Below, in pieces: positions 1,872 to 58,486 of a stretch of 64,000 nt of DNA. The position numbers and the translations under genes were made by a program. The notes below the pieces were generated by a model. That model did not search any database and was not told where the DNA came from. It saw only the letters and a program-made list of their open reading frames with translations. How positions within the stretch are numbered: position 1 is the stretch's first letter; each line of letters begins with the position of its first letter. The stretch is from an uncultured Bacilli bacterium (GTDB taxonomy: Bacteria; Bacillota_I; Bacilli_A; RF39; UBA660): positions 40,865 to 104,864 of the forward strand of contig CANQVV010000001.1 of NCBI GenBank assembly GCA_947627385.1. The letters are read 5' to 3'.

Positions 1872-2639
1872 TTATATCATAAAGAAAACAAGTAAACGGG
1901 AAAATTTTTCTATAAAGATAAACACTATTGTAGAAGCTGCAATTAAAAATGGACCATATGGAAGTTCATTTTTTTTGAGCAAATATATTGATGCAATTGC
2001 ATAAGGCATTGCTAAAAAAGCAGAAAAAACAATGGTTATTAATCCTAAATAAAAGCCATAATAACCATATCCTAAGGACACGCCAATTATAAAACAAAGT
2101 TTAATGTCCCCGCCTCCTAAGGATTCTCTTTTAAAGATTTTATCACCAATTATTTTAACAATATACATAAAAACAAATAATATTATTCCATAAATAATAG
2201 CTAAAAACATTCCTTTAAGACCAACTTCAAAATATTTTATTATTATAAGTAAAATTCCACTAATAATAAGAGGACTATCTAAAATAATCATATATTTTAA
2301 ATCACTAATAAAGATAATTAAAGTTAGAGATACTAAAACAAGATAAGTAGCATAATCTAGTGTTAAACCATAATAATAATATCCCCAAAGAAATAATAAA
2401 CCACTAATTATTTCTACAATAAAATGCTCAATAGCAATTTTTTGACCACAATGTCGACATTTTCCTAACTGAAAAATATAAGATAATATTGGGATTAATT
2501 CATACCATTTTAAAACTGTATGACAATGATCACATCTACTTCTACTAGTAATGATATTTTCTCTTAAAGGAAGTCTTGTTCCTACTACTAAATAAAATGA
2601 TCCTAAAATTGCTCCGACTATAAATGCTAACAAAATCAT
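1872..2639 (-). CDS. prepilin peptidase (A24 family, PilD/ComC-like)
   Basis: N-terminal CxxC...CxxC zinc motif (CDHCHTVL...CRHCGQKI) followed by a polytopic membrane domain. Confidence 0.8.
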   Translation of the reverse strand: MILLAFIVGAILGSFYLVVGTRLPLRENIITSRSRCDHCHTVLKWYELIPILSYIFQLGKCRHCGQKIAIEHFIVEIISGLLFLWGYYYYGLTLDYATYLVLVSLTLIIFISDLKYMIILDSPLIISGILLIIIKYFEVGLKGMFLAIIYGIILFVFMYIVKIIGDKIFKRESLGGGDIKLCFIIGVSLGYGYYGFYLGLITIVFSAFLAMPYAIASIYLLKKNELPYGPFLIAASTIVFIFIEKFSRLLVFFMI

Positions 2640-2647
2640 AAATACTC

Positions 2648-4210
2648 CTACATAATATCTTCATACATACCAAACATTGGTACAACAACAGCAATTATTA
2701 TTCCACCTACTACTAAGGCTAAAACACTTATTAAAATAGGTTCAATAAAAGATTTTAAATTATTGACAACATTACGATGAAGACCTTGATAATATTCACT
2801 AACTTTTTGCATCATTTCATCAAGTTCACCAGTTGATTCACCAGTAACAATCATAAAATAAGCTACATCAGGAACGGCCCAATGATCTTTAAAAGCCTCC
2901 GATATTTTTTCACCTTTAACAATATTATTGATGGTTCTAAACAATATACCTTTATAAATTTCATTATTAGTTATTTTACTTAAAATATCAATACTTTCGG
3001 TAATAAAAACATTATTTCTTAAAAGAGAAGCAAAAGTTTTAGTAAATATTGTCAGTTCATTATAAATAATAATATCTTTGATAACGGGAATATGCATAAA
3101 TAAAATTTGTAAATTTCTTCTAAATGGTTTTACATTTTTATAAGCCACGATAATAATTATTATAGTTAATATAATTATTGCTGAAATTGCTACAATATTG
3201 TTCTTTAAAAAGTTACTAAAATTAATAACAAATGCTGTTAAACCATTTAACTCTAAATCGTTTTTTTCATAAGTTTCCACAAATTTTGGAATAATAAATA
3301 TTAAGATAAAAGTTACTACTGCTAAGGCAAAAACACTAATAATTGCCGGATATGTCATGGCACTTTTCATTTGTTTACGAGTATCATCAACCTCAGTATA
3401 ATAATTAGCCATATCATCCAAAGTATCAGTTAAAGTACCACTAGCTTCGGCAGCTTTAATCATATTAATTAAAAGAGGTGGAAAAATATTACCTTGTTTT
3501 TCTAAGGCAGTTGAGAATGTTGCTCCTAGGGTAAGTTCATAAGAAATAGCTTGAAATACCCGCATTTTACTTTTCTTCTTAGAAACTTGTTTGGAAAGTA
3601 TTTTAACAGAATCATTTAAAGGGATACCTGCTTTTAAATAAGTTGATAATTGAGTTAACCAAAATATTAATTCTTTGGTACTCATTTTAGGACTACCAAT
3701 TGATGATTCTTTATATAAGAAATTAATCATTGGACTAGTCTTAATACTATAAACAGTATAGCCTTCATTAACTAAAAAAGCATTAATATCTAGTTTAGAT
3801 AAACCATTCATTGTACCAGTAATAATTTTACCATTCTTATCCCGAACTTTAAAACGATAAACATTAACTTCTTTACTTCGAGTAGCTCCGGTTGTTTGTA
3901 AATCACGGACTAATTCTTTATAATCTTGTTCTAGTTTAGCCAAAGTTTTAGCACTATAATTATAAACTTTTTCTTTTTTCCGGCGTTTATCATCATCCTC
4001 ATAAATAGTACCATAAGCTTCCTTAGTTCTTTTATAGCCTTTACCTAATCGCCAAGCAAAGAAATTGTATAAATAAACAAATAAATCATAAGTACTAGCT
4101 TTAAGGCCAATTAAAGCATAAGAAAAAATATAAAAAGGTAATAATAAAATATTTTTAAAAATATCGGTTATGGAAATATGTTTTTTTTCACTTTTATCCT
4201 TTTCTTCCAT
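2648..4210 (-). CDS. type II secretion / type IV pilus platform protein (GspF/PilC family)
   Basis: Cytoplasmic N-domain motif YRFKVRDKNGKIITG...EGYTVYSIK, then two T2SSF repeats. The first ~100 codons of the ORF may lie upstream of the true start. Confidence 0.75.
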   Translation of the reverse strand: MEEKDKSEKKHISITDIFKNILLLPFYIFSYALIGLKASTYDLFVYLYNFFAWRLGKGYKRTKEAYGTIYEDDDKRRKKEKVYNYSAKTLAKLEQDYKELVRDLQTTGATRSKEVNVYRFKVRDKNGKIITGTMNGLSKLDINAFLVNEGYTVYSIKTSPMINFLYKESSIGSPKMSTKELIFWLTQLSTYLKAGIPLNDSVKILSKQVSKKKSKMRVFQAISYELTLGATFSTALEKQGNIFPPLLINMIKAAEASGTLTDTLDDMANYYTEVDDTRKQMKSAMTYPAIISVFALAVVTFILIFIIPKFVETYEKNDLELNGLTAFVINFSNFLKNNIVAISAIIILTIIIIIVAYKNVKPFRRNLQILFMHIPVIKDIIIYNELTIFTKTFASLLRNNVFITESIDILSKITNNEIYKGILFRTINNIVKGEKISEAFKDHWAVPDVAYFMIVTGESTGELDEMMQKVSEYYQGLHRNVVNNLKSFIEPILISVLALVVGGIIIAVVVPMFGMYEDIM

Positions 4211-12654: not shown

Positions 12655-14265
12655 TTATACTTTTTTTATAATATATGGATCATCTTTTGTTCCAGTTCCT
12701 AATAAAGTTATATTACTTGATAAATAAAAGACAGGTCTCACATAAAATGCTTGACCAAAATTATAATGACCAGCTAGACCTTCTGATGGACTATATGTTC
12801 CATTTATATATGATTGAGCATAAAAGGCATATTCATAATAATAACCTCTTCGAGATAATAAAAGTTCACTTTTTCTAACACCATTATTATTAATATGAAT
12901 CCAATTACTAAGGCCAATTGCAGGAGAAATAATATAGGTATTAGCATATGCTAAATAAAAATCAGAATAATTTAAAATACCTATTTTGGCATTAACAAAA
13001 TCGGTCCAAACATTATCTACTGGATAATAATATGTTACAGTTCCTTTATATCCCCCATTAGTAGCTACCGTTTCAGTTCTTCCCAAAGAATCACTTTCAG
13101 CTTTTACATAATATAATGAACTTTTTTTACCACTTTCAACTTCAAAAAAATTAATAATACTTTTAGTATTAGCTGTTACTAAATCACCATATAGCCATTG
13201 ATGATCTGATATCAAATCATACCAATTAATGTCTAAATTATTTGGTACATAATCATTATTATTTAAAAAATTTGTTCCATTTATAGCTTTGTAAGACTCA
13301 GTATCTGGCCAAATAACATTATCATCATAACTTCTTGACCATTGAAATAAATTATTTCCAAGTGAATCTTTTTTTATTATTTTTAATTCATTGGTAAATG
13401 TATCTATTCCCATTATCCTATACATATGATGTTCTTCATCTTCTAAACATTCATTTTTATTTGTGGTGCCAAAACATATATAATTATTCTTTATTGTATC
13501 ATTTGTACCTTGAAATCTTCTAAGAGTATCTTCTCTTTCAGCTGTACTTTTTAAATTTTCCAATTGAGTTGAAGAATTTTTTTCCAAAATTTTTTCTACA
13601 TCACTTTTTTCTACACTATTACACTTAATATTTGATATTTTTAAAGAAACTAATAATTCTTTACCTGCCAAATAAATTTGACTATTATTTTTATTGTTTA
13701 TTTTTAAATAACTTTTAATATCTTGACTACCATTAATATTAATAACAAAATCTAATGTAAAATTCATTTGACCAGTTTCTTTTAAATCATATAAATCTAT
13801 AAATTTGACGGAAGTTCCACCAGAAATAAATAAAAATGCATCATCATTTTCTAATACACTTCCCATACTATTTAAAGAAGTATCTAAATTAACCATAACA
13901 TTTACTGAACATTTATTTCTTAAAGTCAAATTTTCAGAAACTAATTTTGCAACAATAGTCTTAGCTTCATCATCAGAAGTTACATAGCTTTTACTATTAT
14001 CACTTGTTGAATAGTATGATCCAATATTTTCTAAAACCATATCAGAATTTTTCAAATTAATATGTAATTTACTTTCTAAACCATTTAATGCAATACTTTC
14101 TGAGGGTGGCATTTTAATATTAATGGTTGAATTTGCTACTGTACTTACAATATCTACATTAAAATATGCATACGTTGCCCCGATTACTAATACTAGTAAT
14201 GTTACAACTCCAATTATTGATGTCATTATCATTTTTCTTTTATCTTGATTACCATTGTCTTCCAT
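12655..14265 (-). CDS. secreted protein with TasA/SipW-cognate-type signal peptide (GATYAYFNV)
   Basis: N-terminus KRKMIMTSIIGVVTLLVLVIGATYAYFNVD matches the SipW-dependent signal class (TIGR04088-like). C-terminal GTGTKDDPY motif. Strong RBS AAAGGAG. Confidence 0.6.
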   Translation of the reverse strand: MEDNGNQDKRKMIMTSIIGVVTLLVLVIGATYAYFNVDIVSTVANSTINIKMPPSESIALNGLESKLHINLKNSDMVLENIGSYYSTSDNSKSYVTSDDEAKTIVAKLVSENLTLRNKCSVNVMVNLDTSLNSMGSVLENDDAFLFISGGTSVKFIDLYDLKETGQMNFTLDFVININGSQDIKSYLKINNKNNSQIYLAGKELLVSLKISNIKCNSVEKSDVEKILEKNSSTQLENLKSTAEREDTLRRFQGTNDTIKNNYICFGTTNKNECLEDEEHHMYRIMGIDTFTNELKIIKKDSLGNNLFQWSRSYDDNVIWPDTESYKAINGTNFLNNNDYVPNNLDINWYDLISDHQWLYGDLVTANTKSIINFFEVESGKKSSLYYVKAESDSLGRTETVATNGGYKGTVTYYYPVDNVWTDFVNAKIGILNYSDFYLAYANTYIISPAIGLSNWIHINNNGVRKSELLLSRRGYYYEYAFYAQSYINGTYSPSEGLAGHYNFGQAFYVRPVFYLSSNITLLGTGTKDDPYIIKKV

Positions 14266-14444
14266 AAATCTTTACTCCTTTTATTATTATGGATAAATTA
14301 TTACTCTTTAATGTATATCTTACTTCTTTATTTTATCATATTTATCGTATTTATGTATATGTTATTAATTCTATTTTGTTATATTATGTAAATTATTATT
14401 GTTGATAACTTCCATATTATACAATTCTTCCTACTTTACAAAGT

Positions 14445-14472
14445 AATTATATAATACCCCCCCCGGAGTCAA
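14445..14472 (-). promoter_or_regulatory. candidate sigma-A promoter: TTGACT, then CC, G8, TATTA (15 nt spacer), then TATAAT
   Basis: Minus strand reads TTGACTCCGGGGGGGGTATTATATAAT. This is the only 8-nt G/C homopolymer in the window. It is about 185 nt upstream of the start of CDS 12655..14265. Confidence 0.45.
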
Positions 14473-41953: not shown

Positions 41954-42592
41954 TTACATTTGTAAATATTCTCGCATTTTAGATATTCCCTTTTTTTCAT
42001 ATCTAGATACCATTACTTGGGTCATATTAAGTTTTTTGGCAACTTCACTTTGAGTTAAATCTTCAAAATATCTCGATTTAATAATATCTTTTTCTGACTG
42101 ATTTAAAACTTTAAAACTATCATAAATTAATATTTTAGTATCAAAATCAATATCTGTACCTATGCATTCATAAGCACATCGTTCATCTTCACTATTACTA
42201 TCCAAAGATAAAATACTATCGGCACAACCACAAGCCATTTCTATTTCATCAAGTGGTAAACCTAAAAATTCAGCCATTTCTAAATTTGTAGGTATTTTAT
42301 TTAATCTTTGGGCTAAAATATATCTAGCTTGTTCTATTTTTTTATATAATCTTAGTATGTCTTTACTTATTTTTAAATTTTTATTACTAGCTAATAGATA
42401 CATTTCTCCAAAAATATAATCATGAGCATAAGTAGAAAATTTAGTATTACTATTTTTTTGATACTTTTTTAATGCTTTAAGTAACCCTACTACTCCGGCT
42501 TGATATAAGTCATTTTTATCAATACCATAAAAATGACTTGCTATCTTCCAAATCATTTTTTCATTATCTTTTAATATCTGTTCATAGTTCAC
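41954..42592 (-). CDS. sigF: sporulation sigma factor SigF-like (compact, 212 aa)
   Basis: Sigma-70 regions 2 and 4 (TQVMVSRYEKKGISKMR). Sits between spoIIAA and spoVAC, as sigF does in Clostridia. Confidence 0.75.
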   Translation of the reverse strand: MNYEQILKDNEKMIWKIASHFYGIDKNDLYQAGVVGLLKALKKYQKNSNTKFSTYAHDYIFGEMYLLASNKNLKISKDILRLYKKIEQARYILAQRLNKIPTNLEMAEFLGLPLDEIEMACGCADSILSLDSNSEDERCAYECIGTDIDFDTKILIYDSFKVLNQSEKDIIKSRYFEDLTQSEVAKKLNMTQVMVSRYEKKGISKMREYLQM

Positions 42593-42596
42593 CCTT

Positions 42597-42929
42597 TCAC
42601 ACCTCTATCATATTTAAAGCTGCTTTTTCTGATGCCACCATCTTAATATGTAAACGTTTTAATTTAAGCAATACTGCATCTGGTACCTGACATAAAAATA
42701 TTTTGCCATTATTTTTCTTGATGATACACTTTGAATTTAAAATAGCATCTACACCCAATTCAGAAATACTTTTTAAATTAGCTAAATTATAAATTAAATA
42801 TTTAATTTTATGTTTAGTTAAAATAGGTATTAAATAATAATTTATTTTACTGCAACCTTTTTTGTCAAAATTACCATTTAATCTTACAAAAAGTACTTCC
42901 TTATCATATTCCAAATCCATTTTTAACAT
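42597..42929 (-). CDS. spoIIAA: anti-sigma factor antagonist SpoIIAA-like (STAS domain)
   Basis: STAS motif NLANLKSISELGVDAIL with a phosphorylatable Ser. Start taken at the ATG with an AGGTGA RBS, not the TTG used by the ORF track. Confidence 0.7.
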   Translation of the reverse strand: MLKMDLEYDKEVLFVRLNGNFDKKGCSKINYYLIPILTKHKIKYLIYNLANLKSISELGVDAILNSKCIIKKNNGKIFLCQVPDAVLLKLKRLHIKMVASEKAALNMIEV

Positions 42930-42974
42930 ACATTCACCTGCTATTTTAATATAGAACAATATTTTTTTATTTTA

Positions 42975-43032: not shown

Positions 43033-44388
43033 TTATTTAGTAAACTTATACCACAAAAGTAAATTAGATTTATCTACCGGATTAGGTATATTTGTATAGT
43101 TTGCTTTGATTTCTGATTCACTTAATGCTCGATCAAATATTAAAGCATCACTAAATGTTGCATATGCAAATGCACCGCCATAAAGGCTACCTGGATTGGC
43201 ACCTAAAAAAATTGGTTCAGTTGACCCTCTTATATTATCAGTAATTGGATAATTAGCTGTTTCTACTCCATTAATATATATTTTTATTGTTTGACCATCA
43301 TATGTTGCTACTAATGTATACCAAGTACCAATTTTTATTTCTTCACTTGAATTTACAGCTTTATAACCATTAATCTGTGGATAAAAGCACAAATTACTAG
43401 AACAATCTGAGTAATGATATATAAAGCCCATTCCAGCAACCTCCCAATTTCCTATAATATGTTGAGAATCACCTTCAATATTTATTCTAACTCTTGTTAT
43501 TAATGATACTATATTTTTAAAATCATAATTAGCAAGTCCTGCATTAACCCAACCATTTTTATTATCATCACTGGTTGTTATTCCTTCATTATCTATTTTA
43601 ACTATATTATTGGCTATTCCTACATTACCATTACCACTTAAATCTTCTATTATTGTATCTCCTAAATTGGTTATCACACTGATGGCACTCTTAAATGTTT
43701 GACCTTTGGTACTATTATCATAAGTTGTTGTATGAGATACTCCACTTTTCTCTTCTCCTGTCGATAAATCATACATTGCTGTATCCCCTTCATAATAATC
43801 TACCCATAAATATATTTTATAAGTATTGGTTGTATTTTTTTCAATACTAGTTCCATCTATTACATAACTTTCTCTATTATTATAACTACTAGTGGCACTC
43901 TTACTATCTAAATTCTTATTTAATAACTCTGAGGTTGTATTTCCTGTCGGTAACATTTGCAAACTAGTTAAATAATTGGGCTTTTTCCAAACCACTTCAC
44001 TTCCTGTACCTATCTTTTTCTTGACTTGGTATCTTATTTTACTACTTGCTATACTACTTTCTCCACTTTTTGTTAATGTTGTTAGTATTAACGAATAACT
44101 TACTTTATTACTACAATTATTTTTTACTTGTACTTTGATAGGATTTGTTATATTTGCTGTGGCATAACTATCTGTTACCGGATAATTAAATGGCAAACTA
44201 ATATTTCCACTACTATCATTGGCTATACTTATATCTATACAATCAGTTTTAGTTGTTATAGTTGAATTAGCTATACTTCCTGTTACATTTACTTGAAAGT
44301 AAGCATATGTACTTGTTACTGTTACTATTATTAATAATACTACAAACATTACTGCATATATTAGATATTTTTTGTTATTATCTTCCAT
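43033..44388 (-). CDS. secreted LamG (concanavalin-like) domain protein with TasA/SipW-cognate-type signal peptide (TSTYAYFQV)
   Basis: N-terminus YLIYAVMFVVLLIIVTVTSTYAYFQVN. C-terminal Laminin_G_3-like WYTLVATYDGQTIKIYINGVE...IFLGANPG. Start at the ATG at 44388 with an AGGAGA RBS. Confidence 0.65.
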   Translation of the reverse strand: MEDNNKKYLIYAVMFVVLLIIVTVTSTYAYFQVNVTGSIANSTITTKTDCIDISIANDSSGNISLPFNYPVTDSYATANITNPIKVQVKNNCSNKVSYSLILTTLTKSGESSIASSKIRYQVKKKIGTGSEVVWKKPNYLTSLQMLPTGNTTSELLNKNLDSKSATSSYNNRESYVIDGTSIEKNTTNTYKIYLWVDYYEGDTAMYDLSTGEEKSGVSHTTTYDNSTKGQTFKSAISVITNLGDTIIEDLSGNGNVGIANNIVKIDNEGITTSDDNKNGWVNAGLANYDFKNIVSLITRVRINIEGDSQHIIGNWEVAGMGFIYHYSDCSSNLCFYPQINGYKAVNSSEEIKIGTWYTLVATYDGQTIKIYINGVETANYPITDNIRGSTEPIFLGANPGSLYGGAFAYATFSDALIFDRALSESEIKANYTNIPNPVDKSNLLLWYKFTK

Positions 44389-44510: not shown

Positions 44511-44747
44511 ATGGATCGTTTAAAAGAAATTAGAGAAGACAGAAATTTAAAACAAAAAGATATCAGTAAAATGCTTAATGTTTCCCAAGTAGCTTATAGT
44601 TACTATGAAATTGGCAAAAGACAAATACCAATTGATATTTTAAAAAAACTTGCAAAAATATACAATGTATCTACTGACTATTTATTATATTTAACTGATG
44701 AAAAGAAGCCTTATCCAAAAAGTATGATTAATAAAGAAAAAAATTAG
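44511..44747 (+). CDS. XRE-family helix-turn-helix transcriptional regulator
   Basis: 78 aa. LKQKDISKMLNVSQVAYSYYEIGKRQIP is an HTH_3 motif. Confidence 0.8.
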   Translation: MDRLKEIREDRNLKQKDISKMLNVSQVAYSYYEIGKRQIPIDILKKLAKIYNVSTDYLLYLTDEKKPYPKSMINKEKN

Positions 44748-58114: not shown

Positions 58115-58486
58115 TTAAATATCTATATCAACTTTAAAATTATCTTTTTCTTTAATTATTTCAATCATTTTTGAATTTAGTGTTTCATTACTATTAGAAG
58201 GATCAATAATATTGCCATCTTCATCGGAAACTAAAATTTTGCTATCAATTAAATCTTGTACAGAAATATGGGTGGAATTATTTTCCTCAAATAAATCTAA
58301 ATGTTGATTAGCATAAGCTATGGCACTTTTCTTGATTGTTTCTATAATATTATTATGTGCTTTATTAATATCATAATCATTTTCAAAAGCATAAGATGCT
58401 TTGTTAATAATGATAAAATATGCTATCGTAAAGATTACCATTATTATTGTCAAAGCAATTATTTTTTTATCTTTCCATATTTTCAT
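58115..58486 (-). CDS. hypothetical membrane-anchored protein (123 aa)
   Basis: N-terminal TM. No known domain. Confidence 0.35.
   Translation of the reverse strand: MKIWKDKKIIALTIIMVIFTIAYFIIINKASYAFENDYDINKAHNNIIETIKKSAIAYANQHLDLFEENNSTHISVQDLIDSKILVSDEDGNIIDPSNSNETLNSKMIEIIKEKDNFKVDIDI

What the first reader, a model, noticed from the sequence alone, without database searches (positions are those of the whole stretch)
12655..14265. Two paralogous secreted proteins with TasA/SipW-cognate-class signal peptides (TYAYF motif), no sipW in the window
CDS 12655..14265 (…IGATYAYFNVD) and CDS 43033..44388 (…TSTYAYFQVN) both begin with a basic region, a hydrophobic stretch, then (A/S)TYAYF(N/Q)V. 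This is the hallmark of the SipW-dependent signal class used by TasA/CalY-type matrix and fibre proteins in Bacillus. They also share a module ~100 aa in (NKCSVNV / NNCSNKVSYS). In a spore-former such proteins are candidates for extracellular fibres, biofilm matrix or spore appendages. The cognate SipW-type signal peptidase and any TapA-like anchor would be encoded elsewhere.
Basis: partly seen in the sequence, partly recalled or inferred. Interest (0 to 1): 0.6.

Follow-up and report, generated by a model that had tools for sequence, protein, structure and literature searches.

The report
TasA-like signal on lectin-headed surface proteins
Two genes of an uncultured, very AT-rich, spore-forming gut bacterium encode secreted proteins with ligand-binding heads that start with the same conserved leader, a divergent form of the leader that Bacillus uses for its biofilm-fibre protein TasA; thousands of unannotated proteins share this leader, and one of the two genes looks switchable through a run of eight G's in its promoter.

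Summary
Both CDS lie on the minus strand. They share a Lys-rich start, a 19-20-residue hydrophobic stretch and (A/S)TYAYF. Detectable similarity ends at about residue 51, and the "NKCSVNV/NNCSNKVSYS" module is not supported.

This N-terminal module defines a large unannotated family: 2,479 protein clusters, with many copies per genome in gut MAGs labelled "uncultured Bacilli/Tenericutes". It aligns in register with the TasA signal peptide (hhalign 90.5%). That places TasA's known cleavage site at GATYA|YF, with the aromatic P2' residue that hinders LepB cleavage and marks TasA, a SipW substrate. TIGR04088 scores nevertheless stay below the cutoff (P1 14.7 of 19 bits; P2 no hit). No signal peptidase gene lies in the window or beside any relative.

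The proteins are not TasA-like single-domain subunits. Each has a beta-sandwich followed by a binding head: DUF6273 (C-type-lectin-like) in P1 and LamG in P2.

Best reading: exported adhesin-like proteins carrying a divergent SipW-class leader. The window's only G/C run of 6 nt or more (G8) sits in a promoter-like spacer upstream of P1. Such tracts recur upstream of relatives, which suggests phase variation. Cleavage, the peptidase and switching are all untested.

The parts
12655..14265 (-). P1 CDS, 536 aa (identical to P0001)
   Evidence: ORF list; AGGAG at 14275..14279, 8 nt before the ATG; identical protein on 8 public contigs
14167..14265 (-). P1 predicted signal peptide, residues 1-33: Lys-rich n-region, h-region 12-28, c-region G29-A-T-Y-A33; predicted cleavage A33|Y34
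   Evidence: Direct reading; AF2 helix 5-28; register with the TasA signal; conservation table. Cleavage is inferred, not shown
14161..14181 (-). GATYAYF motif of P1 (residues 29-35)
14098..14166 (-). P1 conserved early mature segment (residues 34-56), no confident structure in the monomer model
   Evidence: pLDDT below 50 for residues 28-53; conserved polar, beta-like pattern across the family
13612..14097 (-). P1 beta-sandwich (jelly-roll-like) domain, residues 57-218
   Evidence: AF2 pLDDT about 85-97; only weak TNF/C1q-like Foldseek matches; sequence group A, 25 members
12658..13524 (-). P1 C-terminal DUF6273-like (C-type-lectin-like) head, residues 248-536
   Evidence: Family consensus; PF19789 on homologues; top BFVD structural matches are DUF6273 phage proteins; DUF6273 is described as C-lectin-like (PMC10743442)
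14446..14472 (-). Promoter-like site TTGACT-(15 nt)-TATAAT, 181 nt upstream of the P1 ATG
   Evidence: Direct reading; the scan tool missed it because its spacer range is 16-18 nt
14457..14464 (-). G8 homopolymer (G on the P1 coding strand) inside the promoter-like spacer; candidate slipped-strand switch
   Evidence: The only G/C run of 6 nt or more in the 64 kb; similar tracts upstream of relatives
43033..44388 (-). P2 CDS, 451 aa (identical to P0036)
   Evidence: ORF list; AGGAG 8 nt before the ATG at 44388
44302..44388 (-). P2 predicted signal peptide, residues 1-29; predicted cleavage A29|Y30
   Evidence: Direct reading; AF2 helix 6-25; family HMM 62.9 bits
44296..44316 (-). TSTYAYF motif of P2 (residues 25-31)
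43669..44259 (-). P2 beta-sandwich N-domain, residues 44-240 (sequence group B, 8 members)
   Evidence: AF2 pLDDT about 70-88
43036..43641 (-). P2 LamG / concanavalin-A-like lectin head, residues ~250-451
   Evidence: Pfam Laminin_G_3 E 2e-16; Foldseek matches to LamG/lectin domains, E down to 4.5e-10
44511..44747 (+). Divergent XRE-family HTH gene (78 aa), 122 nt from the P2 start
   Evidence: Pfam HTH_3 E 9e-17; the same arrangement next to P2 orthologue P0039 in a different neighbourhood and next to at least 6 other family genes

Best explanation
P1 and P2 are two distant members of a large, unannotated family of exported proteins. The family occurs in uncultured, very low-GC, spore-forming gut Bacilli.

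The family is defined by a ~55-residue N-terminal module: a Lys-rich n-region, a 19-20-residue hydrophobic core, a nearly invariant G-A-T-Y-A|Y-F, and about 20 polar residues. This module is a divergent version of the TasA/CalY signal peptide. The most likely route is Sec export followed by cleavage between Ala(-1) and Tyr(+1) by an ER/archaeal-type (SipW-like) signal peptidase I encoded elsewhere in the genome. The aromatic residues at P2 and P2' would make it a poor substrate for an ordinary P-type enzyme.

The mature proteins are modular. A short N-terminal segment with no confident structure in the monomer models is followed by a beta-sandwich 'stalk' and then a ligand-binding head: C-type-lectin-like DUF6273 in P1 and LamG in P2. 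Other family members carry Fn3, BspA-type LRR/DUF285 or GLUG domains. They are therefore more likely surface or extracellular adhesins, or glycan-binding proteins, than matrix-fibre subunits.

P1 probably has a phase-variable promoter, because a G8 tract sits in the spacer of a -35/-10-like site. P2 travels with its own divergent XRE regulator.

Shown: the family, the module and its conservation, its similarity in register to TasA leaders, the domain architecture, and the association with poly-G tracts. Inferred: export, the cleavage site, the type of peptidase, adhesin function and phase variation.
For: Module and family: BLASTP of P1 against P2. Conserved N-termini in homologues. A genome scan gave 266 pattern matches, 174 of them confirmed, with many copies per MAG, and 77 ORFs were catalogued. 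A 61-column profile finds 2,479 cluster representatives at E<=1e-3 and 218 at E<=1e-10.

Conservation around the proposed site: G(-5) 90%, A(-4) 92%, T/S(-3) 100%, Y/F(-2) 100%, A/G(-1) 99%+, Y/F(+1) 99%, F(+2) 97%.

Similarity to TasA leaders: hhalign 90.5%, E 1.4e-6, in register, with the reversed control at 0.3%. TasA relatives carry TWAAF, TYAAF, TFAAF or TFAYF. Sub-threshold TIGR04088 hits appear in 8 of 31 plus several more members. One 202-aa member scores 31.7 bits on Peptidase_M73 (threshold 22.5) and is 29% identical to TasA over 84 residues.

Literature: aromatic P2' and bulky P2 residues hinder LepB, and TasA is cut by the ER-type SipW (PMC10269814).

Architecture: AF2 models; LamG; DUF6273; passenger-domain census.

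Poly-G. XRE pairing.
Against: TIGR04088's curated cutoff is not reached by any member tested, and P2 gives no hit at all.

No S26-family peptidase was found in the window or in 1.15 Mb around relatives. This sample is too small to say anything about whole genomes.

Neither protein has a recognisable cell-wall anchor, so a cleaved protein needs some other means of retention; an uncleaved signal anchor would explain surface display more simply.

The N-domains show no detectable homology to mature TasA, and TasA was not among the top 50 structural matches.

The evidence that P2' aromatics block P-type peptidases comes from E. coli LepB, not from Firmicutes enzymes.

The G8 tract has the same length in the two assemblies available, so switching has not been seen.
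Confidence: 0.55

Rival explanations
1. Uncleaved signal anchor. The N-terminal helix stays in the membrane as a type II anchor. GATYAYF is an aromatic belt at the membrane interface, or a docking motif, and the stalk and lectin head are displayed directly on the cell surface.
For: AF2 models a continuous helix of 20-24 residues. Neither protein has another anchoring domain. The passengers are adhesin-type domains that need to be retained at the surface. No dedicated peptidase gene lies nearby.
Against: The substitution pattern follows the (-3,-1) rule: only A/G at -1, only T/S at -3, and Gly at -5. The module aligns in register with a leader that is known to be cleaved. The hydrophobic core (19-20 residues) is about as long as TasA's.
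Confidence: 0.25
2. Ordinary Sec signal peptide cut by the housekeeping P-type signal peptidase I. The motif is conserved only through common descent or gene conversion among paralogues and has no special enzymology.
For: The A-x-A-like site fits any SPase I. Archaeal TasA homologues are thought to use the generic peptidase (PMC9245690). N-termini are 75-84% identical among paralogues within a genome, which fits homogenisation. TIGR04088 scores stay below the cutoff.
Against: Phe at P2' is 97% conserved and P2 is aromatic. None of 143 verified LepB substrates has an aromatic P2' residue, and TasA's P3-P4' region blocks LepB (PMC10269814). The motif is conserved across 2,479 clusters, whose downstream domains are no longer detectably related wherever I compared them.
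Confidence: 0.12
3. TasA/TapA-like fibre components. After cleavage, the conserved N-terminal segment acts as a donor strand. P1 and P2 then either polymerise or plug into fibres built from the small (~200 aa) family members, as lectin-tipped subunits comparable to TapA or AbpB.
For: The anatomy matches TasA and TapA: leader, N-terminal extension, then a beta-sandwich. The extension has pLDDT below 50 in both monomer models. In TasA the donor strand is residues 28-38 and includes F29, the P2' residue; TapA's N-terminus is similar (PMC9674648). TasA-sized members exist, some in tandem with large ones.
Against: There is no homology to the TasA mature domain. No small subunit is visible in the window. 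No multimer model or fibre data exist. Low pLDDT is also what a plain flexible tether would give.
Confidence: 0.15
4. Spore-surface or spore-appendage proteins expressed during sporulation, as the position of P2 between the sigE and STAS-sigma-spoVA operons might suggest.
For: P2 lies between spoIIGA-sigE and STAS-sigma-spoVAC/D/E. TasA was first described as spore-associated (PMC9674648).
Against: P2 orthologues at 85% and 70% identity sit next to PBP/mraY/ftsW and murein-ligase/ireB genes instead. P1 and other relatives lie among housekeeping genes. A Sec-type leader directs export from the cell.
Confidence: 0.05

Closest known systems
SipW-dependent signal peptides of TasA, TapA and CalY (NCBIfam TIGR04088)
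   Same: Lys-rich n-region, hydrophobic core of about 18-20 residues, and a G-x-T-[WYF]-A|[AY]-F box with an aromatic P2' residue. Profile-profile alignment is in register.
   Different: Scores fall below the curated cutoff. What follows the box is Q/T/N-A/V rather than N/S-D. No sipW gene is adjacent. The leader is used on dozens of multidomain proteins per genome, not on one or two matrix proteins.
TasA / camelysin family (Pfam PF12389) and archaeal bundling pilin AbpA
   Same: Leader, then an N-terminal extension, then a beta-sandwich. A few small family members reach the Pfam threshold.
   Different: P1 and P2 are 2-2.5 times longer and carry lectin-type heads. Their sandwich domains are not detectably homologous to TasA. 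No tapA-sipW-tasA-like operon is present.
TapA (B. subtilis) and AbpB (Pyrobaculum), the minor, multidomain partners of TasA-like fibres
   Same: A signal-proximal beta-sandwich followed by distal domains. AbpB's distal domains are proposed to act as adhesins, and TapA's N-terminus resembles the donor strand.
   Different: No sequence or operon link was shown here. The analogy rests on architecture alone.
DUF6273 and LamG receptor-binding heads of gut phage tail proteins and DGR targets
   Same: P1's C-domain matches phage DUF6273 proteins structurally. P2's head is a LamG lectin fold.
   Different: The genes here are chromosomal, carry an export leader, and have no template repeat or reverse transcriptase nearby.
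Homopolymer-controlled contingency genes (Campylobacter poly-G tracts, Neisseria promoter-spacer poly-C/G, Mycoplasma vlp poly-A); from general knowledge
   Same: A G/C homopolymer in a promoter spacer or 5' coding region of surface-protein genes that belong to a multi-copy family.
   Different: Length variation within a population was not observed here. It has not been described for this lineage as far as my searches show.

Membership tests
TIGR04088 SipW-dependent-type signal peptide | HMM score at or above the curated cutoff (19 bits) | tested here: not met
   P1 14.7 bits, P2 no hit. Relatives score 12.4-17.9 bits; 8 of 31 match at E<=1, best E 0.0036.
TIGR04088 SipW-dependent-type signal peptide | n-h-c leader ending in T-[WYF]-A|[AY]-F, with small residues at P3 and P1 and an aromatic P2' | tested here: met
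   Direct reading; frequencies; hhalign 90.5% in register with TasA leaders; TasA-family box census.
TIGR04088 SipW-dependent-type signal peptide | An ER/archaeal-type signal peptidase I (SipW) in the same genome | not testable with these tools
   None in the window or in 1.15 Mb of related loci. Whole genomes could not be searched.
TIGR04088 SipW-dependent-type signal peptide | Cleavage that depends on SipW | not testable with these tools
   Requires experiment.
TasA / camelysin (Pfam PF12389 Peptidase_M73) | Pfam score at or above 22.5 bits | tested here: not met
   P1 8.7 bits (E 1.9, leader region only); P2 none. One distant 202-aa relative scores 31.7 bits.
TasA / camelysin (Pfam PF12389 Peptidase_M73) | Mature domain homologous to the TasA jelly-roll | tested here: not met
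TasA / camelysin (Pfam PF12389 Peptidase_M73) | Operon with tapA and sipW | tested here: not met
   Neighbours are thioredoxin and an HNH-like ORF (assigned by eye) for P1, and XRE, sigE and STAS genes for P2.
LamG / Laminin_G_3 (PF13385), P2 head | Pfam score above threshold and a lectin-type fold | tested here: met
   60.9 bits against a threshold of 27.6; Foldseek probability 1.00 to LamG domains.
DUF6273 (PF19789), P1 head | Pfam score above threshold | tested here: inconclusive
   P1 itself gives no Pfam hit. Homologues do, and the top BFVD structural matches are DUF6273 proteins, E 5e-6 to 8e-6.
Type IV pilin (class III signal; a PilD/PilC pair is in the window) | G|F-T-L-x-E box before the hydrophobic segment | tested here: not met
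   P1 and P2 have no such box, and their motif follows the hydrophobic segment. The only GFTLIE in the window is C-terminal in an unrelated ORF.
Phase-variable contingency gene | Mutable homopolymer in the promoter or 5' coding region | tested here: met
   For P1 only: G8 at 14457..14464 in the spacer of TTGACT-15-TATAAT. P2 has none.
Phase-variable contingency gene | Tract-length polymorphism within a population | tested here: inconclusive
   The window and L001 both have G8. Paralogous loci L054 and L013 have G9 and G5 at the homologous position.
DGR target protein | Template repeat and reverse transcriptase nearby | tested here: not met
   No repeat of either gene's 3' end and no YxDD motif in the window.

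The most novel reading that the evidence does not exclude
The GATYA|YF leader and the conserved ~20-residue segment behind it form a lineage-specific display system. After cleavage by a SipW-type peptidase, the new N-terminus would act as a common donor strand. That strand would plug many different lectin-headed proteins (P1, P2 and their paralogues) onto fibres built from the small TasA-sized family members. Which heads are displayed would be set by poly-G phase variation. This would amount to a Gram-positive, chaperone-free analogue of tip-adhesin pili with a switchable adhesin repertoire.
Probability: 0.15. Interest if true: 0.8.

Novelty: new variant of a known kind. Interest (0 to 1): 0.5.

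Why it matters
Current models do not recognise this leader: every member tested falls below the TIGR04088 cutoff. As a result, thousands of probable surface proteins of uncultured gut Bacilli are left as 'hypothetical'. Recognising the module would give a simple handle for listing the exported, host- or glycan-facing proteins of these organisms. It would also extend the TasA/SipW signal class from a few matrix proteins to a general sorting signal used by a whole lineage, and predict that an ER-type signal peptidase is their key secretion enzyme. The poly-G tracts suggest that these bacteria vary their surface repertoire by contingency switching. This can be tested directly in existing metagenome reads.

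Tried and rejected
- **Homology of P1 and P2 beyond residue ~53.**
- **Homology of the N-domains to mature TasA.** None found. Profile searches of PDB sequences also found nothing.
- **A signal peptidase in the window or beside relatives.** Neighbour clustering found no recurrent partner except an XRE regulator and an ABC ATPase.
- **Type IV pilin reading**, prompted by PilC/PilD in the window. Rejected: the motif is on the wrong side of the hydrophobic segment.
- **DGR target reading**, prompted by DUF6273. No template repeat or reverse transcriptase.
- **Sporulation link from gene order.** Not conserved in orthologues.
- **A third window ORF** (58115..58486, TM followed by KASYAFEND). Not a family member at 8 bits.
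- **Promoter and terminator scans.** Uninformative in this AT-rich DNA. Rfam found nothing near either gene.
- **Literature.** A search for the motif found nothing relevant.
Full report
**1. The observation**

Both ORFs exist at the stated coordinates, on the minus strand: P1 at 12655..14265 (536 aa) and P2 at 43033..44388 (451 aa). Each ATG is preceded by AGGAG at 8 nt.

P1 begins MEDNGNQDKRKMIMTSIIGVVTLLVLVIGATYAYFNVD. P2 begins MEDNNKKYLIYAVMFVVLLIIVTVTSTYAYFQVN. TYAYF occurs at only these two places in the six-frame translation of the window. BLASTP aligns residues 1-51 at 39% identity (E 3e-8) and finds nothing significant further on.

An HMM of the N-terminal module, built from relatives with the window's own proteins left out, hits exactly these two ORFs (62.9 and 60.5 bits). 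The next best hit is about 10 bits. The shared N-terminus is therefore real and far beyond chance.

The claimed second shared module (NKCSVNV / NNCSNKVSYS) is not supported:
- With the first ~53 residues removed, iterative HMMs place P1 in a 25-member group and P2 in a separate 8-member group.
- hhalign between the two domain profiles gives 0.07% probability.

**2. Organism and setting**

The window has 25.4% G+C. It carries SpoIIGA, sigma factors, a STAS protein and SpoVAD, and an RNase P of class B. This fits a low-GC, spore-forming Firmicute.

P1 is identical to a protein on contigs from several gut metagenome assemblies. Relatives come almost only from MAGs named 'uncultured Bacilli bacterium' or 'uncultured Tenericutes bacterium', from Clostridium sp. 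CAG:609 and Firmicutes bacterium CAG:460, and from Candidatus Onthocola (Bacilli incertae sedis).

**3. A large family defined by the N-terminus**

- All close homologues of P1 and P2 are unnamed. Most start the same way: a few Lys, a hydrophobic stretch of 19-20 residues, then (G/S/T)(A/S/I)TYAYF.
- A scan of one genome per species for [VI][IVA]GATYAYF gave 266 matches, 174 of them confirmed. Many lie in the same genome: at least 15 loci in MAG CAKORY and at least 9 in CANPZG. I catalogued 77 such ORFs in the fetched loci.
- A 61-column profile of the module finds 2,479 cluster representatives at E<=1e-3 and 218 at E<=1e-10 among 1.84 billion proteins.
- Over 200 distinct N-termini, numbered relative to the proposed cleavage site: G(-5) 90%, A(-4) 92%, T(-3) 97% (otherwise S), Y(-2) 91% (otherwise F), A(-1) 99% (otherwise G), Y(+1) 91%, F(+2) 97%. 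About 25 polar residues with a beta-like pattern follow. The set was selected by regex, so the core figures are somewhat inflated.

**4. What rides on the module**

*P1.* The AlphaFold model has pLDDT 85.4. It shows a helix at 5-28, a low-confidence segment at 28-53, a beta-sandwich at 57-218, and a mixed alpha/beta domain at 248-536.
- The sandwich has only weak jelly-roll neighbours (TNF/C1q-like, phage fibre tips).
- The C-domain's best structural matches are phage DUF6273 proteins. Homologues hit Pfam DUF6273.
- DUF6273 has been described as C-type-lectin-like and as the variable, ligand-binding part of phage receptor-binding proteins (PMC10743442, PMC11792537).

*P2.* The model has pLDDT 76.8 and the same layout: helix 6-25, low confidence 24-48, sandwich 44-240. 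It ends in a LamG/concanavalin-like lectin domain.

*Other carriers of the module.* They bear Fn3, DUF285 and BspA-type LRR, GLUG, Ig-like and, in a few small proteins, Peptidase_M73 domains. The LamG head of P2 also occurs behind other N-termini, including a true type IV prepilin leader (P0058) and an 'IGFAYLTS' variant.

The module is thus a portable N-terminal signal attached to binding-type passengers. It is not the start of one protein family in the ordinary sense.

**5. Relation to the TasA/SipW class**

The formal test fails. TIGR04088 scores 14.7 bits for P1 against a cutoff of 19 and gives nothing for P2. Relatives score 12.4-17.9 bits.

The resemblance is nevertheless specific:
- hhalign of the module profile against TasA-family N-termini gives 90.5% probability (E 1.4e-6). 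VVGATYAYF aligns with LVGGGTWAAF. The reversed control gives 0.3%.
- TasA relatives carry TWAAF (102 of 109), TYAAF, TFAAF or TFAYF.
- TasA's donor strand, the start of the mature protein, begins at residue 28 (PMC9674648). The equivalent cut here falls at GATYA|YF.
- A Phe at P2' and a bulky aromatic at P2 are the features reported to make TasA a poor substrate for the P-type peptidase LepB, whereas the ER-type SipW processes it (PMC10269814). Both features are nearly invariant here.
- One 202-aa member (L066:9998-10603) passes Pfam's Peptidase_M73 threshold (31.7 bits against 22.5). It aligns to TasA over 84 residues that span the leader and the first strands (29% identity, E 7e-5).

Beyond the leader, the N-domains of the P1, P2 and third groups show no detectable homology to mature TasA (probability <=9%).

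**6. The peptidase**

No S26-type gene is in the window, and none is in the 1.15 Mb around relatives. Clustering of neighbouring genes found no recurrent partner except a small XRE regulator. Family genes are scattered singletons among housekeeping genes.

This says only that the peptidase is not encoded next door. The sample is too small to judge whole genomes. Archaeal TasA homologues are thought to use the generic enzyme (PMC9245690).

**7.

The only G/C homopolymer of 6 nt or more in the whole window is a G8 on P1's coding strand at 14457..14464. It lies inside TTGACT-(15 nt)-TATAAT, 181 nt upstream of the ATG. Two more G's would give the optimal 17-nt spacer.

In 1.18 Mb of window plus loci there are only seven G/C runs of 7 nt or more. 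Five of them sit just upstream of, or in the 5' end of, family genes:
- Four, including the window tract, were found by the automated count, where about 0.23 would be expected by chance.
- One more, in L064, was found by inspection.

A sixth run lies in a second copy of the L064 element.

Details of individual tracts:
- L016 shows the same promoter-spacer arrangement.
- In L007 a G9 lies inside the 5' coding region, out of frame with the RBS-preceded ATG. A G8 or G11 would restore the frame.
- Paralogous loci L054 and L013 have G9 and G5 at the homologous position.

This is the signature of contingency loci. However, the two assemblies of P1's promoter both have G8, so switching itself was not observed.

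P2 has no such tract. It is paired with a divergent XRE gene (44511..44747). The same pair recurs in a different neighbourhood in a 70% orthologue. P2's position between sporulation operons is therefore incidental.

**8. Interpretation**

The best-supported reading (confidence about 0.55) is that P1 and P2 are exported, lectin-headed, adhesin-like proteins that carry a divergent SipW-class leader. Cleavage at A|Y by an ER-type peptidase encoded elsewhere is predicted.

Rivals:
- An uncleaved signal anchor (0.25). It would explain retention at the surface more simply. It fits poorly with the strict (-3,-1) substitution pattern and with the in-register match to a leader that is known to be cleaved.
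- An ordinary P-type site (0.12).
- Spore proteins (0.05).
- A TasA/TapA-like donor-strand role for the conserved segment after the cleavage site. This is compatible with the anatomy, with the low-confidence segment in both models, and with the role of TasA residues 28-38 including F29. It is unsupported by any homology or multimer evidence (0.15). If true, it would be the most interesting outcome.

**9. Novelty**

The signal class and the head domains are known. New elements:
- a divergent variant that current models miss;
- its use as a lineage-wide, multi-copy sorting module on diverse binding proteins;
- the association with poly-G tracts.

I rate this a new variant of a known kind, with interest 0.5.

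Noticed in passing
window 14446..14472 (G8 at 14457..14464, minus strand): The only G/C homopolymer of 6 nt or more in the 64 kb lies in the 15-nt spacer of a TTGACT/TATAAT promoter-like site upstream of P1. Long G tracts recur upstream of family genes elsewhere: 5 of the 7 runs of 7 nt or more in 1.18 Mb.
   Followed up: partly
L007:9986-10060: A G9 tract lies inside the 5' coding region of a P2-like family gene (P0031). From the RBS-preceded ATG (MERQNIVRSGGG...) the frame ends in a stop; a G8 or G11 would read through into the leader. This could be a translational phase-variation switch or a homopolymer assembly error.
   Followed up: partly
L054:60-100 versus L013:9870-9910: Two paralogous family genes in one MAG have homologous upstream regions that differ mainly in the G tract (G9 versus G5).
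   Followed up: partly
L064:9840-9950 and L064:19540-19650: A ~110-nt element containing a G11 or G10 tract is present twice in one contig. One copy lies directly upstream of a family gene.
   Followed up: no
window 44511..44747 (+); L089:4611-4844; L006, L026, L080, L050, L036, L045: A small XRE-family HTH gene is transcribed divergently about 100-150 nt upstream of P2 and of several other family genes. It travels with the P2 orthologue to a different genomic neighbourhood.
   Followed up: partly
window 1872..4210 (-): A prepilin peptidase (A24) and a T2SS-F/PilC-like gene lie side by side after trmK-rpoD-dnaG. I saw no prepilin-type (GFTLIE) gene and no PilB-like ATPase in the window.
   Followed up: no
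window 41954..42959 (-): A STAS (SpoIIAA-like) gene is followed after 4 nt by a sigma-factor gene and then spoVAC/D/E. No SpoIIAB-like kinase gene lies between them, which is unusual for a spoIIA-type operon.
   Followed up: no
window 58115..58486 (-): A 123-aa ORF has an N-terminal hydrophobic segment followed by KASYAFEND, which looks superficially like the TasA box. The family HMM scores it at only 8 bits, so it is not a member.
   Followed up: yes
P0042-P0049, P0056, P0058 (homologues of the P2 LamG head): The same LamG head occurs behind other N-termini: an 'IGFAYLTSNLDIVG' variant (hydrophobic segment followed by G-F-A-Y-L) and a genuine type IV prepilin leader (GFTLIELL). Heads appear to be exchanged between different export or display signals.
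   Followed up: no
L066:7430-12398: Two tandem TasA-sized family proteins (202 and 216 aa; the first passes Pfam Peptidase_M73) lie between a large multi-pass membrane protein (839 aa, YfhO-like by eye) and what looks by eye like a family-2 glycosyltransferase. A 501-aa protein with a variant leader (GLSYGYMSF) and a DUF6273-like end is encoded divergently nearby.
   Followed up: partly
L077:9995-12439 and L033:3741-6064: In two different MAGs a large (~525 aa) and a small (212 aa) family member lie in tandem. This could be a subunit pair.
   Followed up: no
L002, L003, L004 (Logan contigs): Three independent assemblies of P1's locus all break exactly 22 nt upstream of the ATG.
   Followed up: no
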